DNA of 64,000 bases. It comes from Octopus vulgaris. Taxonomy: Eukaryota. The notes under the pieces are model-generated. The model made no database searches. It worked only from the letters and a program-made list of their open reading frames with translations, and was not told the DNA's origin. A program made the position numbers and the translations under genes. The stretch is taken from assembly GCA_951406725.2 (NCBI GenBank), contig OX597818.1, positions 101,618,001-101,682,000 on the forward strand, written 5' to 3'. Numbering within the stretch: the first letter of the stretch is position 1; every line of letters begins with the position of its first letter. Shown here one piece after another: positions 18,794-39,659 of the stretch.

Positions 18794-21700
18794 TAGTTTT
18801 ATTTTTATAGCGTGCTTTCACTTCACTCCCGAGCGCAGCTCTGTGTGCCTTGGGTATGTGCTCTGATTTGTTGTGATGCTCTGATGGTTATTGTATGGAA
18901 AGTGTTCTGAGTAGGATGTGTGCAGTGCCTAGTAGTGCAATTTTCTGTATGTTATATGTGTTTGTAAGTCCTGGTGTTTTTGTTATGTATTTGTCTGAAT
19001 ATGTTTTATCATGCCTAATGCACCTACTATGATAGGAATTGTTTCTGTTTTCAGATTCCACATTCTAGTTACCTCTATTTTCAGGTCTTTGTATTTTGAG
19101 AGATTCTCCATTTCTTTTAGAGACACGTTGTCATCTGCCGGTATTGATACTTCAATTAGAAAGCATTTTTTTTCTTCATGATCTTTGACAACTATATCTG
19201 GTCTGTTGGCCTTAATTTCTCTATCTGTGTGTATCGGCATATCTCAGAGTATGGTTGCTTTCTCGTTTTCTGTGACCTTTTCTGGTGTGTGCCAACACCA
19301 TCTTTTTTCTGTTGTTATTCCATAATGTTGGCATAGCTTCCAATGTATGTAGGTTCCTACTCTGTCATGTCTGTGAATATAGTCCTTCTTAACCAGGTCT
19401 GGGCAGCCAGAGATAATATGATTCATTGTTTCTTGTCCATCTCCACATATTCTGCAGTTACTTGTAATATTTCTTTTCATTACATGTTTTTGGTAATTTC
19501 TGGTGGAGAGGCTTTGGTCTTGTGCTGCAATTAAGAATCCCTCTGTTTCTGCTTTGAGTCCTGAGCTTCTCAACCATTGCTGGGATTTTTCTTTGTCTAT
19601 TTCTTTTGCGTTTAGTTTAGTCCAGTATTTACCATGAAGGGGCTTTTCTTGCCATCGTTTTATCATGGTTCGTTGCTGTTCTATTTTTACTTTGGATTTC
19701 ATTTGTTTTATAGCTTTTGTTGTTTCTTCATCTTCTTCTTCTTCTTCTTCATGTTTATTAGGTGGTGTGATTTCTTGTTTGTATTTGTCAGCTTCCTTAA
19801 ATACTGATAACAGTTTTTTGTTTTGCTCGTGTTTTGCCGCTATCTGGATCAGTTTTCCTCCCTTCTGAAGTAGATATTTTTGCAGTCCTATGGTGGTTAT
19901 TTTATAGTAGTTTTCCAGCTGTATAAGGCCTCTACCACCTTCTATACGTTGTATATATAGTCTTTCTATGTCAGATTTTGGGTGATGCATCCTAGATCCT
20001 GTCATTATTTTTCTTGTTTTCCTATCTATTTTGGTCAGTTCATTTCGTGTCCAGTTAAGGATATTGTAGCTGTAACTTATAACTGGGACAGCTAAAGTGT
20101 TGATACCTATTATCTTCTTTTTAGCATTGAGCTCTGTTTTTAGTATTGATCTAACTCGTCTATAATATTTTTTTTTTATTTTCTCTTTCATTTGTGTGTG
20201 TTGTGTCTTATCTAGTTCATGGATTCCTAAGTATTTGTAAGTGGGGCTTTGGTCTAATTCTTTTATTTCATTGGTTTTATCTAGTGTGATGTTGTTACTC
20301 TTAACTAGTTTTCCTCTTTTCATGGTTACTTTGGCGCATTTTTCTAATCCAAATTTCATATCTATTTCTTTGGTAAATCCATGAACTGTTTTTAATAGTA
20401 TTTCCAGATGTTTGTCATTTGCAGAGTATAGTTTTAGGTCATCCATATATAAAAGGTGGCTGATCGTTTTGCCGTAACATTTATATCCGCATCCAGTTCT
20501 ATTTAGTATATCAGATAGAGGTGACAGTGCCAAGCAGAAAAGGAGTGGAGAGAGCGTGTCTCCCTGGAATATTCCTCTTCTAATGGGGATGTCTTTGGTT
20601 TTCATGAGTCCCTCTTTTGTTTGGAGGTGTAGGACTGTTTGCCATTTATTCATAGAGTGATCTATGAATTTTATGATTGTTGGTGCTACTTTGTTAATGG
20701 CTAGTGTTTCGAGGATCCATGTGTGGGGGATGCTATTAGACGCCTTTTTGTAGTCAATCCAGGCCATACTGAGGCCTTTCTTCTTTCTGTGGCTGTCTTC
20801 AATTATGGCTTTATTAATCATTAGTTGATCTTTACAGCCATATGAACCTTTGCGGCATCCATTCTGCTCTTCTGGGAACAGTTTGTTTTCGCCCAGGTGC
20901 TTGTTCAGCCTTTGCGATATCACTGCAGTAAATGCCTTGAACATAGTAGGGAGGCAGGTTATTGGTCTGTAGTTTTCTGGTTTTTTCTGTTTCATTTGAT
21001 TTGGGAATTAAGATGGTTTTCCCCTTCGTGAGCCATTCAGGCATTGTCTCTGGCTCTGCTAGTATGTTGTTAAAGTTTTCAGCTAGCTTTTTGTGCATTC
21101 CTGTTAGATATTTCAACCAGAAGTTGCGGATCTTGTCAGGCCCAGCTGCCTTCCAATTGCTTAGTTTTTGCAGTGCCTGGGTGACCTCTTCAGTTGTTAT
21201 GGGGGTCCAAAGTTGTTCAGATGCCGAGTTTGTTATTTTTTTTTGGCTGTTCGTTCGCCGACCATATTTCTTTCCAGAATTCTTCCAATTCTTCTGCCGT
21301 TGGTGCTGCAGTGACTTCTATTTTATTTTTGCCCAGTTCTTGGTAGAACTTTTTGGGGTCGGAGTTGAACTTTCTGTTCTGTTCAAAGAAGCGTTGGCGT
21401 TTCTCGTACCGGCGGATCCTTTGAGCTTTGGCAAGGATATCTTGCTTCAGCTTTTCTTTTATCTCCGGCAAATCTTTTTCTGTGATGTTATATTTGCGGA
21501 GCATTTTTGTTCTCTTTTTGTTGCTCAGTAGCGTTGCCTGTTTGCTGATTTCATTAAGAATCGACAGGTCTTTTCTAATTTTTTTTTTTTTGCTTTGGAT
21601 GTTATTTATCCACAGGGTTTGTTTGAGTGGTGGTACTCCTGTTTGGGCGCGTTTGGGTGAGTATCCAGCTTCTTTTGTGGCTGCTGTGGCTGCTGCGTAT

Positions 21701-21861
21701 ATTAAGTCATTTAGCTCAGTGATATCACTTTTTTTTGTTTCAGTGGCTGTCAGTTCAGTGACGGCTAGGTTTATGCTGTTTATAATTGGTGTTGTTATTT
21801 CGTTTATTTTGATTCTTGGGAGGTATTGTCGGTGGTCCATTTTGAGCTCTGTGGTTTTGAG
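18791..21861 (-). mobile_element. R4/Dong-like RLE non-LTR retrotransposon, near full length and probably 5'-truncated, inserted in (TAA)n
   Basis: One disrupted reading frame with RT, zinc knuckle and restriction-like endonuclease domains, a 3' UTR of about 100 bp, and TAA tracts on both sides. Dong-type elements are known to target TAA repeats. Confidence 0.92.
18888..21860 (-). pseudogene. disrupted RT-RLE polyprotein (about 990 codons)
   Basis: Motifs: NWKAAGPD, NYRPITCL, EEQNGCRKG, WIDYKKA, RRGIFQGDTLSPLLF, LYMDDLKL, YKYLG, GGRGL, CRICGDGQETMNHIISGC, RHD, NRPDIVV, IEVSIP, KYKDL, LLGTAHILLRTLSIQ*. Frameshifts near 21240, 20990 and 19000, and a TGA at 19244-19246 where the W of ILWD is expected. 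Confidence 0.93.
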
Positions 21862-21935
21862 TTCTTCTTCTTCTTCTTCTTCTTCTTCTTCTTCTTCTTC
21901 TTCTTCTTCTTCTTCTTCTTCTTCTTCTTCTTCTT

Positions 21936-21966
<31 letters not shown>

Positions 21967-35759: not shown

Positions 35760-35815
<56 letters not shown>

Positions 35816-35933
35816 AATCAAGGAACGGCCATAATAGGCCATTCACCCACTAGAAATAACAGCCAAAGCTTCAACCGCAAAATTACATTAATTCCGCAAA
35901 CCAGGAGAAAATTAAAAAAACATTTACCCTGTA

Positions 35934-36040
35934 ATTTCTTATACGATGCACCGTTTCATCTCTTGTTTAATGGTAAACTAACCTGATTAAATTAAATCAA
36001 GCCAATCTTCCATAGGCCCTTAGATTCGTCAGTAAGAAAT
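35934..36040 (-). ncRNA. type I hammerhead ribozyme, inverted copy
   Basis: Reverse complement of 36267-36373 with no mismatch seen by eye. Confidence 0.88.
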
Positions 36041-36266
36041 AGCCAGATCGGAACAGATATTTTCACGAGGCACTTCTGTCCCTGCCTCGGCAATATCTGA
36101 CCTAAAATTTTCAAATCATCGCACTCGCGCCAAATTTATCGGCAGCAAATAAATATAAGCCGCGATTCCATTACGGAATCAACCAGAAAATTCATAATTA
36201 ATCAATATAGGGTGGCAAAAACATTTTGTAGAATTGCCTCATGAAAATATCTGTTCCGATCTGGCT

Positions 36267-36373
36267 ATTTCTTACTGACGAATCTAAGGGCCTATGGAAG
36301 ATTGGCTTGATTTAATTTAATCAGGTTAGTTTACCATTAAACAAGAGATGAAACGGTGCATCGTATAAGAAAT
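36267..36373 (+). ncRNA. type I hammerhead ribozyme with intact core
   Basis: Helix I ATTTCTTA(36267-74)/TAAGAAAT(36366-73); CTGACGA(36275-81); helix II closed by ATCT(36282-85)/AGAT(36346-49); GAAA(36350-53); quasi-palindromic helix III ACGGTGCATCGT; GUA triplet (36363-65), with cleavage predicted after 36365. Confidence 0.88.
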
Positions 36374-36593
36374 TACAGGGTAAATGTTTTTTTAATTTTC
36401 TCCTGGTTTGCGGAATTAATGTTATATTGCGGTTGAAGCTTTGGCTGTTATTTCTAGTGGGTGAATGGCCTATTATGGCCGTTCCTGGATTGTGATGTTG
36501 AACTTATAAATGGTCTATGACTATTTAATTTTTTCCCACTAGGCTGCTGGTGGCAAAAAAATTCTACAAAATTTTTTTGGCACCCTATATTGA

Positions 36594-36645
<52 letters not shown>

Positions 36646-36814: not shown

Positions 36815-36861
<47 letters not shown>

Positions 36862-37685
36862 TGAGTACCTTACTTACTGTGGTTAACCCCGAATCAACCC
36901 GGGACCTACATATATATATATATATATATATATATACCCGCGACTCCGCCGGAGTCTATAGACGCTTTTCCGAAAGATCGGGACAAAGGATATCATCCCA
37001 ACATTCTGAAAGAATGCGGAACAAAAAAAATCAGACAAGTTGGAAGCCAGAAGGCAGTGAGGAGATGTAAGATGTGGCCATCGCGTCTGACCCGCAAACG
37101 ATGTGTGAGGGTGGGGCAGTTATGAAGTTCAGACTACAAATGTCCGATGCATGTTGGATACCCGTCTCACGAGATCAATTCTCCATGGCCAGGGCTCCAT
37201 TCGCTTAGACGAAGGGAAAAGCACCTCTTTGTAGGTGTTATTAATATATGTTATTAACATACAAATACATTCTCACAGACACACACACACTCACCACACC
37301 ACACAAAGACACACACACACACACACATATATAATAGTAGGTGTGAGAAAAAATGAGTTTCATTGGGAAGGTAAATCCTCATAGGCGTATATGGCATTGC
37401 GCGGCAAAAAATCCTATGAAGAACCACCAGGAACACCTATCAACTATAAAACTCCCCCTTATAAACGAACTAAGAATTCCAAAACTACTCATTTAAAATT
37501 AAACGAATTTGACTAAATAGTGGTAATAACAACACAGTTTCAGCTAATACAAATTCTAATTTAATTTCTAACGAGACTAAGAAACAAACGGAAAGAAATC
37601 GAACCAATAGAATATTAATGTAAACCCTTCCGACGAGAGTAACACCGATCATATAAGAGGACTTAGGGGTAGAAACAGTAGATTC

Positions 37686-38851
37686 CGTAATTATATATGT
37701 TATAACATACTATATAACATAGTGGTTAAGGATAAATTAAGCAATAAAATATTCTCAATAATTTCCAATAACTTCCCACCCACCCATAAGTATAGAAGCA
37801 TCCTCTCAAACCAAACTATTAGGATATCCTACTCAACTCTACCTAACATGAGCTGCCTCATAGCTAAACACAATAATATTAAAATTTGAACAGCTAGATT
37901 AGTGACAAATAATAATGATCACTCGAACCCCAACAATCCAGGCATTAGCATTAGTAGCAGCCAAACCCATAACATTAATCTTAATCATTGTAATAGTCAA
38001 TATAACAATAATCAGGACAGTAACAGTAACACCGAAACTGCTAGTAACAACACCCATCACAACAACACCGGCAGCACTATACCCAATTAATATATATCTA
38101 ACGAAGATAATACTGCTACTACCCTTAATGTGATAGCTCAATCCACATTGAATAATAATTGTAAACTTGATTATACCAATTGTAATAACTATATAACTAG
38201 CACTAATAATAATAACAACGCAGAACACAGTTCCAATATCAGGACTCGAAGCGGAGGAAAGATAGACCAAAACAACTTAAATAGCACCAATAGTGGCAAT
38301 AACAGTAACAACGGCGAAAATACAAGCAGAACTTCCATCCACCACAATAGCAACCTCCACAGTAACCATACACAATTACCTGCCCTAGGACTAATAACAG
38401 ACGGCCGGGAAATGCAACACACGGATGCAACTGCGCAAATGCACCAGCATGTCCCTTACGCGGAAAATATTTAGCTAAAAACGTAATTTATTCCTGTGAA
38501 GTAAGTACCCAATTCAACATACTTACCTACATTGGTTGCTCATCCGTCTGGAAATCCATATTCTATAACCACCGGTCATCCTTTAGGCTCAGACACAAGG
38601 CTAGTAGCACCACTTTATCTAGAAAAAATTGGGAACTTATAGACAATAATATAGATTTTAGCCTTAGGTGGTCCATTATCGGATCAGCTGCGCCTTATAA
38701 AAATAATAGAACAGGGTGCCAACTGTGTTGCGTAGAACTCCAGAATATCTTCAAATTCAAGGAGAAAAACAAATTAATTAATAAAAGATCTGAATTTAAA
38801 CCTTCTTGTACGCATAAATTGACTAAAACCTTCAAATATTACAAGGCTTAG
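37686..38851 (+). mobile_element. Penelope-like element remnant (Naiad-type linker plus GIY-YIG endonuclease), no RT seen
   Basis: NNFPPTHKYRSILSNQTIRISYSTLPNMSCLIAKHN linker, then an Asn/Thr-rich tract, then a stop-free frame 38366-38851: CNC..CPLRG..NVIY..TYIG..YNHRSSF..STTLS..W..WSII..APY..CQLCCVE..LINKRSE..CTH. Confidence 0.85.
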
Positions 38852-39659
38852 GCTCATATACATAAATCTCCAATGTAATATCCTCATATCCACTTACAGC
38901 ATTGTTAACTCCAGCACTTCTCGATTACTCTTCCCCATATCATTTTCCGCTTCTAACTTTGATGTTGAGTCTATTTCCCTGAATTTGTTTCATCCCCCTC
39001 ACCTCTCTTTTATCGCTTATGATTGTTCCCTAATTTCTCCTTTTCCTACCTATGTCTTCCTAACTCCAACCTTTCCTTTCTGATTTTTCCTACCTTTCTG
39101 GGTTTTTATGTTTACATTCACGTTTATTTTTATTTATTTTATAAATTTTTTTACTTTATTTATTGTCAGTTTACTCTCTCAGCCCGATTTTACTTTTATT
39201 TTTTCATTAGTATTTTTTTATCTTCTTTTTACCTTCATTTTCGTCTTATCTTTATTTTCTCCTCTATTTTAAATTTCTTAATCATTTTTAATTTCTTAAT
39301 CTCTAAACCTCTAAAATTTTGTTTAACATGTTCTTCCCTATTTTTATTTCTGTTTTTATTTTTCTCTAATTTTGCCGCATCTTTTTTTTTCTGCTACCCT
39401 TACACATCATTAACTTGCTAATTATTTATTTATAATTTATTTATTTAATTGTTTATAATCGTTACATCAACGTATTCGAGTGAGACATTTAGACTATGTG
39501 GGTTATTTTTGCGTGTGTGCATGAATGAATCTTCGAACGCATAGGTGTGGAGATTTGTATTTTTCGAGAGTCACACGTACCCTTGCGTGGAAGTATGTAC
39601 CTACGCAAATGTACACACACTCGTGCACGCGTGTGTATATGCGAATATGGGCATATATG

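What the first reader, a model, noticed from the sequence alone, without database searches (positions are those of the whole stretch)
35811..36601. Two intact, oppositely oriented hammerhead ribozymes in a young palindromic element inserted in (TA)n
Seen: a 791-bp non-coding unit bounded by (TA)n on both sides, with 267-bp inverted arms that are about 98% identical by eye. Each arm holds a complete type I hammerhead: 8-bp perfect helix I, CUGACGA, GAAA, a GUA triplet and a quasi-palindromic helix III (ACGGUGCAUCGU). Known: Penelope-like element pseudo-LTRs and retrozymes carry type I hammerheads with palindromic helix III, and inverted pLTRs arise during PLE retrotransposition. Inference: this is a recently mobile, protein-free, TA-targeting ribozyme element. 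A read-through transcript from either strand would carry one ribozyme plus its antisense, so self-cleavage would compete with formation of a long dsRNA hairpin, a potential ADAR or siRNA substrate.
Basis: partly seen in the sequence, partly recalled or inferred. Interest (0 to 1): 0.9.

Follow-up and report, generated by a model that had tools for sequence, protein, structure and literature searches.

The report
Penelope-driven hammerhead retrozyme, two-ended insertion
The palindrome is one of several hundred scattered insertions of a 488-base, protein-free repeat carrying a predicted self-cutting RNA; the insertions nearly always end at two fixed points, one per side, which suggests that a Penelope-type jumping gene likely copies the same RNA onto both ends of a cut in a TA repeat at once.

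Summary
In detail: a 791-bp unit with 267-bp inverted arms (98%), two type I hammerheads and (TA)n flanks. The unit is not a palindromic element in its own right. It is one head-to-head insertion of a 488-bp tandem repeat, a non-LTR retrozyme (922 exact hammerhead 20-mers genome-wide).

Of 41 insertions sampled in genome order, 30 are two-armed, always with 3' ends outward. In 24 of those 30, one arm ends about 131 nt and the other about 235 nt past the cleavage site; none has two ends of the same kind. Both arms share one haplotype. Young Hydra-clade Penelope-like elements (PLEs) in this genome show the same two-end rule and TA target, but none shares sequence with this family.

The likely mechanism is two-site target-primed reverse transcription by a PLE; the 104-nt difference is the PLE 'tail'. 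One correction: on read-through the antisense arm is made first, so the hairpin is predicted to bury the ribozyme, and this locus cannot release a circle. Cleavage and expression are untested.

This is a new member of a known kind with unusually clean mechanistic evidence. The scan has noted similar PLE-type insertions on other DNA.

The parts
35780..35812 (.). (TA)n target, left side; the left arm's 3' end joins it through a terminal AT
35811..36235 (-). Left arm: monomer positions 195-488 then 1-131 (counted from the cleavage site); ends at the 'short' start site
35934..36040 (-). Type I hammerhead, minus-strand copy (core from 36032, predicted cleavage after 35942)
36230..36235 (.). Head-to-head junction: 6-bp overlap (microhomology) between the two 5'-truncated arms
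36230..36601 (+). Right arm: monomer positions 353-488 then 1-235; ends at the 'long' start site
36267..36373 (+). Type I hammerhead: helix I 8 bp, CUGACGA 36275-36281, helix II 4 bp plus long insert, GAAA 36350-36353, quasi-palindromic helix III, predicted cleavage after 36365
36497..36601 (+). 'Tail' of about 104 nt between the two fixed 3' end points; includes a 12-bp hairpin at about 36549-36584
36599..36643 (.). (TA)n target, right side

Best explanation
The 791 bp are a single insertion of a 488-bp hammerhead-bearing tandem repeat (a non-LTR retrozyme), likely made when a Penelope-like retrotransposon protein cut both strands of a (TA)n run and likely primed reverse transcription from both DNA ends on the same RNA. 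Steps: (1) Shown: the monomer, tandem arrays, TA flanks, two fixed 3' ends (about +131 and +235), outward-facing arms, variable 5' truncations and a shared haplotype between arms. (2) Inferred: tandem loci are transcribed, and the hammerhead cuts, probably as a dimer through the palindromic helix III, giving monomers that can circularise. (3) Inferred: a dimeric Hydra-clade PLE protein binds the 131-235 region, one subunit starting at each site. (4) Inferred: both cDNAs run through the cleavage site, often several times, so the template is a circle or an uncleaved multimer. The two cDNAs stop at scattered positions and are joined 5' to 5', often by microhomology. The window copy is a dead-end product: one ribozyme per strand, predicted to be buried by its antisense on read-through.
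For: 922 exact hits of a 20-nt hammerhead motif, 0 for the reversed control. 488-bp period in a 7-hammerhead array. Of 41 insertions in 40 regions taken in genome order, 30 are two-armed, all with 3' ends outward; 24 of 30 pair a short with a long end, 0 are short/short or long/long, and 6 have one end elsewhere (p about 5e-8 for independent choice). 67 of 71 3' ends abut TA runs, against 4 of 11 free 5' ends. Opposite arms differ by 0.69%, same-arm copies by 0.61% and different loci by 3.2%; at 23 polymorphic columns opposite arms agree 1224/1238 against 67% between loci. No register effect between arms (0.66% vs 0.65%). The same short/long pairing holds in sister family C (8 of 9) and in autonomous PLEs P1 (9 of 10), P2 (6 of 7) and P3 (2 of 2). 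P1-P3 carry the Hydra hallmarks. Hammerhead helices covary between families A and B: 9 of 16 pairs change on both sides, 94.6% of cells paired. In vitro, a PLE cuts and extends both strands and starts at two internal sites bounding the tail (PMC11167929).
Against: No autonomous PLE with a pLTR homologous to this family was found (P1, P2, P3), so the driver is unidentified. Cleavage is untested. The monomer's lowest-energy fold misfolds the core, 2.0 kcal/mol below the active fold. Pair 10.1-11.1 is A-U (A·C in some copies) rather than the usual G-C, and 8 of 9 predicted retrozymes failed to cleave in one study. In PMC11167929 the start site did not differ between top and bottom strands in vitro. 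One family C locus has two long ends (L170). A circle cannot be told from a homogeneous multimer, and one RNA cannot be told from two RNAs of the same source locus. Covariation comes mostly from one A/B split, so it counts few independent events.
Confidence: 0.8

Rival explanations
1. The family is a retrozyme, but it is integrated by L1-style twin priming or by fold-back self-priming on an antisense template (as proposed for Penelope inversions), not by paired use of two fixed sites.
For: Junctions often overlap by 1-7 nt. One locus (L078) has the long arm starting at 136, just past the short site, as twin priming predicts. Self-priming is proposed in PMC3846280.
Against: Twin priming gives non-overlapping arms and a random internal priming site. 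Here both ends are fixed, and both arms copy the same upstream sequence, up to 2.2 kb. Fold-back priming gives symmetric centres, whereas the paired 5' truncation points differ in nearly all loci (e.g. 195 vs 353 in the window).
Confidence: 0.08
2. The repeat is a satellite or minisatellite spread by DNA-level recombination, with a relic hammerhead that no longer matters.
For: Tandem arrays exist. The preprint 10.64898/2026.07.22.740005 discusses local amplification by unequal crossover. No cleavage or expression data.
Against: Dispersed short arrays with fixed 3' ends at TA and scattered 5' ends are a retrotransposition signature. The CUGA-GA core shows 1 change in 672 against about 6.5 expected, while N7 varies in 42 of 112. 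Helices covary.
Confidence: 0.05
3. The 488-bp unit is simply the pLTR of an undiscovered autonomous PLE, and these loci are its 5'-truncated ends.
For: The end behaviour matches that of PLE pLTRs here. PLEs are mostly 5'-truncated.
Against: Upstream of each hammerhead lies the previous monomer, not an ORF or 3' UTR. Arrays reach 7 hammerheads. In 54 loci the only PLE protein matches (L001, L021, L080) lay outside the element.
Confidence: 0.05
4. The inversion is a chimeric-read or assembly artefact.
For: No listed contig piece bridged this locus's own junction.
Against: The arms carry 4 private differences outside the junction. 30 of 41 loci are inverted with fixed ends. Contigs of public runs X15 and X16 hold other head-to-head joints (short sides, 20-28 nt) and the +131 end joined to (AT)n (10 and 7 contigs).
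Confidence: 0.02

Closest known systems
Metazoan non-LTR retrozymes (Cervera & de la Pena 2020, PMC7229834; Li, Clavereau & Pollet 2026, 10.64898/2026.07.22.740005)
   Same: Non-coding tandem monomer with one type I hammerhead per unit, GC 37%, no ORF/LTR, stable predicted circle (z about -6), co-occurring PLEs.
   Different: The 488-nt monomer is above the 170-400 nt of the 2020 paper but within the 51-972 bp of the preprint. It has a 60-nt helix II insert and a 12-nt quasi-palindromic helix III. Most insertions are head-to-head with two fixed ends in (TA)n, a pattern not described in the parts of those papers that I read. No pLTR homology was found, unlike 24 of 57 Xenopus families that matched Repbase TEs, nearly all PLEs.
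EN+ Penelope-like element insertions with inverted pLTR and 'tail' (PMC3846280, PMC8557442, PMC11167929); Hydra clade
   Same: Tandem plus inverted 5'-truncated copy, a tail on one end only, (TA)n target, hammerhead with palindromic helix III.
   Different: No protein. The tail is about 104 nt (70-112 nt in this genome's PLEs) rather than 30-40 nt. The tail is described as optional or often one-sided in the papers; here it is on exactly one arm in 24 of 24 classifiable two-armed insertions.
Non-autonomous Chlamys elements such as MRC1 (PMC8557442)
   Same: Non-autonomous PLE passengers with multicopy head-to-tail insertions.
   Different: Those share 3' sequence with an autonomous family, and their clade lacks canonical hammerheads.
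Rfam hammerhead models
   Same: Core nucleotides and three-helix topology.
   Different: No Rfam match was obtained.

Membership tests
Type I hammerhead ribozyme | CUGANGA, GAAA and UH core closed by three helices, helix I open | tested here: met
   covariation in all three helices
Type I hammerhead ribozyme | Match to an Rfam hammerhead model | tested here: not met
   the long helix II insert is the likely cause
Type I hammerhead ribozyme | Self-cleavage at the predicted site | not testable with these tools
   needs in vitro assay; active fold 2.0 kcal/mol above the MFE, helix III dimer duplex -17.5 kcal/mol
Type I hammerhead ribozyme | Loop 1 / loop 2 tertiary contact | not tested
   helix I is open and helix II carries a 60-nt insert
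Non-LTR retrozyme | [quoted passage not shown] | tested here: met
   488-bp period; tandem hits. The window locus itself has only one ribozyme per strand.
Non-LTR retrozyme | No coding capacity, no LTR | tested here: met
   no ORF >=100 aa within 35811-36601; no PLE protein match inside the element in 54 loci
Non-LTR retrozyme | Expressed as linear and circular monomer RNA | tested here: inconclusive
   no holder on record as RNA; contigs cannot show circles, ends or strand
PLE-mobilised non-autonomous element | Inverted 5'-truncated copy plus one-sided tail; microsatellite target | tested here: met
PLE-mobilised non-autonomous element | Sequence shared with the pLTR of an autonomous PLE | tested here: not met
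   no significant blastn match to pLTRs of P1, P2, P3; other PLE families were not surveyed
Hydra-clade PLE (candidate drivers P1-P3) | C-terminal EN, DKT, CxCX5C linker, CxxC and CxH motifs, RWK, (TA)n target | tested here: met
   read by eye from ORFs against PMC8557442 section 11; P1 has RWA, not RWK; no tree built; Pfam gave no RT or GIY-YIG hit for P1; Atlas neighbours carry HTH_animal, GIY-YIG or RVT_1

The most novel reading that the evidence does not exclude
A PLE dimer engages one RNA, here a 488-nt self-cleaved circle, at two fixed sites at once, one for each end of a double-strand cut, and rolls round it in both directions of integration. This would explain PLE head-to-head inversions and the one-sided 'tail' as the obligatory outcome of a single reaction. 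It would also show that animal retrozymes hijack PLEs by presenting a structural two-site module, not by sharing pLTR sequence.
Probability: 0.45. Interest if true: 0.75.

Novelty: new member of a known kind. Interest (0 to 1): 0.5.

Why it matters
Two questions are open in the papers read: what integrates animal retrozymes (PLEs are proposed from co-occurrence and pLTR similarity), and how PLEs make their tandem/inverted insertions. This family carries the PLE integration signature itself, with a strict short-end/long-end pairing that it shares with autonomous Hydra elements in the same genome. It supplies a compact natural RNA substrate and intact, very young candidate enzymes (one with an endonuclease domain identical across 150 scored copies), so both questions can be tested in vitro. 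Roughly 300 inverted loci would also be long double-stranded RNA sources if read through.

Tried and rejected
- Rfam scans gave no hammerhead.
- Search for the autonomous partner: three protein searches found three young PLE families; none matched family A at the DNA level. Apparent links at L033/L115, L116 and L186 were sister retrozymes nested in TA or TC runs beside PLEs.
- Possible PLE-retrozyme template-switch chimeras (L083, L103): PLE ends lie on both sides, which fits nested insertion.
- A shared GGTR...YACC hairpin upstream of the long end is visible by eye in A, B, C and P2 and weakly in P1; it was not tested statistically and lies at different distances from the end, so it is a lead only.
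- Expression: no RNA holder was listed on record. Two runs guessed to be RNA cover all 29 bins, which is not evidence of transcription.
- No listed contig bridged this locus's own junction; a hole proves nothing.
- 5' truncations are not enriched near the cleavage site (10 of 71 in positions 1-49, p=0.17). A post-hoc excess at 200-249 (14 of 71, uncorrected p=0.012) is not relied on.
- Family B ends could not be tallied because copies were too divergent from the reference used.
- The script stopped after the window copy, so the active-fold energy is for that copy only.
- A target-site duplication cannot be read inside (TA)n.
- Look-ups of earlier findings by sequence and by place found nothing.

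Full report
OBSERVATION. The sequence is as described. The arms at 35811-36077 and 36230-36496 are 267 nt and 98% complementary, between (TA)n runs at 35780-35812 and 36599-36643. Each arm holds a full type I hammerhead. On the plus strand: helix I 36267-36274/36366-36373, core CUGACGA 36275-36281, a 4-bp helix II closing a 60-nt insert, GAAA 36350-36353, a quasi-palindromic helix III, and predicted cleavage after 36365. A strict descriptor gives these 2 hits in the window and 0 in 100 simulated windows. Rfam does not detect them.

WHAT THE UNIT IS. The window lies in a 2.8-Gb genome. A 20-nt hammerhead motif occurs 922 times exactly, with 0 for the control. On contig C1, 77 hits fall into 37 clusters, so about 440 loci is my extrapolation. 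Many hits are 488-490 bp apart, and an array on C1 has an exact 488-bp period. Numbering the monomer from the cleavage site, the window locus is a left arm on the minus strand (195-488, then 1-131) and a right arm on the plus strand (353-488, then 1-235), overlapping by 6 bp. The 'spacer' and the unpaired right end are therefore parts of the same monomer. The monomer is 37% GC and folds as a circle about 6 SD below 60 shuffles; the antisense circle folds less well (-108 vs -144 kcal/mol).

INSERTION RULES. I fetched 36 of the 37 C1 clusters (the 37th was already held as L026-L030, a single-armed array ending at 131) and the first 4 on C2. They hold 41 insertions: 30 two-armed, all with 3' ends outward, and 11 single-armed. 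Of 71 3' ends, 35 lie at 120-147 (mode 131), 30 at 225-242 (mode 235) and 6 elsewhere; 67 of 71 abut TA runs, against 4 of 11 free 5' ends. Of the 30 two-armed insertions, 24 pair one short with one long end, 6 have one atypical end, and none pairs like with like (p about 5e-8). I then added 14 non-redundant loci out of the 30, leaving out duplicates, loci cut by the fetch edge and the C1 array; the count becomes 35 of 42, again with no like pairs. 5' truncation points are scattered, junctions range from 12-nt overlaps to 20-nt gaps, and arms reach 2.2 kb.

ONE TEMPLATE SOURCE. Over 54 loci, opposite arms differ by 0.69%, same-arm copies by 0.61% and different loci by 3.2%. At 23 subfamily columns opposite arms agree 1224 of 1238 times, against 67% between loci, and 192 of 337 rare variants are shared across arms. 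Divergence does not depend on monomer register (0.66% vs 0.65%). Both arms thus derive from the same homogeneous template, and reverse transcription crosses the cleavage site repeatedly, which a cleaved linear monomer cannot allow. A circle or an uncleaved uniform multimer fits; these data do not separate them, nor one RNA from two RNAs of the same source.

IS THE RIBOZYME UNDER SELECTION? The six fixed bases of CUGANGA, which were not part of the selection pattern, show 1 change in 672 against about 6.5 expected from the 0.96% background, while N7 varies in 42 of 112 (tandem copies are not independent). Sister family B (383 motif hits) is 62% identical over 395 nt and keeps all three helices by compensatory change: 9 of 16 pairs, 94.6% of cells paired against 37-45% when slid (19 hand-picked copies, mostly one phylogenetic split). 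Against strong activity: the monomer misfolds by 2.0 kcal/mol, pair 10.1-11.1 is A-U, and this copy has lost a fifth helix II pair (G at 36345 in 8 of 126 copies). Helix III can pair with itself between two monomers at -17.5 kcal/mol, the dimer route described in PMC4209133 (passages).

WHO MOVES IT. A decayed PLE 1-2 kb downstream led to three young autonomous families: P1 (842 aa), P2 (981 aa) and P3 (717 aa, endonuclease 100% identical in all 150 scored copies). By eye they carry the Hydra-clade motifs of PMC8557442 (section 11), a clade reported to insert in (TA)n and to bear hammerheads. They obey the same rule: outward-facing pairs are short/long in 9 of 10 P1 loci (nested L071 left out), 6 of 7 P2 loci (inward-facing L178 and L179 left out) and 2 of 2 P3 loci. 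Tails are about 70, 112 and 70 nt. Retrozyme family C (562 hits; 557-bp monomer) gives 8 of 9, with one long/long exception. None of P1-P3 shares detectable sequence with family A, so PLE mobilisation rests on the signature, not on homology.

MECHANISM. Shown: tandem monomer, fixed paired ends, TA target, shared template, hammerhead conservation. Inferred: a PLE protein, predicted to be a dimer and shown in vitro to cut and extend both strands from two internal RNA sites that bound the tail (PMC11167929, parts 1-2 of 4), uses one site for each DNA end; the two cDNAs abort and join head to head. That paper saw no strand preference for the start site in vitro, so the strict pairing seen here is an addition to test. 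It also argues against the antisense self-priming model of PMC3846280 (passages).

The arms diverge, so any read-through makes the antisense arm first. The predicted fold (-514 / -532 kcal/mol) pairs the entire ribozyme. With one ribozyme per strand and arms of 425 and 372 nt, this locus cannot yield a monomer circle. It is a product of the family, not a source.

READS. Contigs of runs under two organism labels hold the family, the +131 end joined to (AT)n, and other head-to-head joints. This argues against an assembly artefact, although this locus's own junction was not bridged. In two runs only guessed to be RNA, A>G at 36294, 36339 and 36343 and T>C at 36393 appear while being absent from 113-137 genomic copies and nearly absent from the two other runs. 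This is a weak hint of A-to-I editing, without matched DNA.

KNOWN VERSUS NEW. Non-LTR retrozymes (PMC7229834, parts 2-4 of 6 read), their proposed PLE origin (10.64898/2026.07.22.740005, parts 1-3 of 5 read), and PLE inversions, one-sided tails and TA targeting (PMC8557442, passages and section 11) are all known. Seven literature searches showed no description of this family or of strict short/long end pairing in a retrozyme. I read no supplements and had no Repbase or Dfam, where the family may already be listed. The genome looks like a cephalopod's to me (recall, not tested). Earlier notes of this scan report similar PLE-type insertions of other non-coding units in other genomes; they are not independent evidence.

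VERDICT. A real feature and a new member of a known kind, with clean evidence on how retrozymes and PLEs integrate. Interest 0.5.

Noticed in passing
window 37330-39600 (+), EN frame 38366-38851: Decayed, 5'-truncated Penelope-like element of the P1 lineage (71% aa identity to the 842-aa ORF), with an asparagine-rich linker.
   Followed up: yes
window 36860-36909: 3' tail of another hammerhead-bearing repeat family (seen complete in L108, L130, L164), here without its ribozyme, ending in (AT)n.
   Followed up: partly
window 19244-21963 (-): LINE-type reverse transcriptase frames (RVT_1, E 4.5e-29) with TTC/TTA arrays at the 5' side.
   Followed up: no
L061-L074, L175-L204: Three young autonomous Hydra-like PLE families (842, 981 and 717 aa). 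P3 has an endonuclease identical in 150 of 150 scored copies, and its hammerhead-like motif starts CCGAAGA rather than CUGA.
   Followed up: partly
L115:5340-6080, L135-L154 (family B); L116:4365-6538, L155-L174 (family C); L186:2700-3320: Sister retrozyme families of 478 and 557 bp, and a form intermediate between A and B (71% to A) with a GCCGAUGA core.
   Followed up: partly
about 200 fetched loci: At least ten different type I hammerhead families, most with palindromic helix III and many with long helix II inserts, turned up by chance; the genome is very rich in them.
   Followed up: no
window 36294, 36339, 36343, 36393: A>G or T>C differences in two runs guessed to be RNA, absent from 113-137 genomic copies; possible A-to-I editing on both strands.
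   Followed up: partly
window 36549-36584 and equivalents in B, C, P2: A GGTR...YACC hairpin precedes the long 3' end in several families; a possible shared protein-binding signal.
   Followed up: partly
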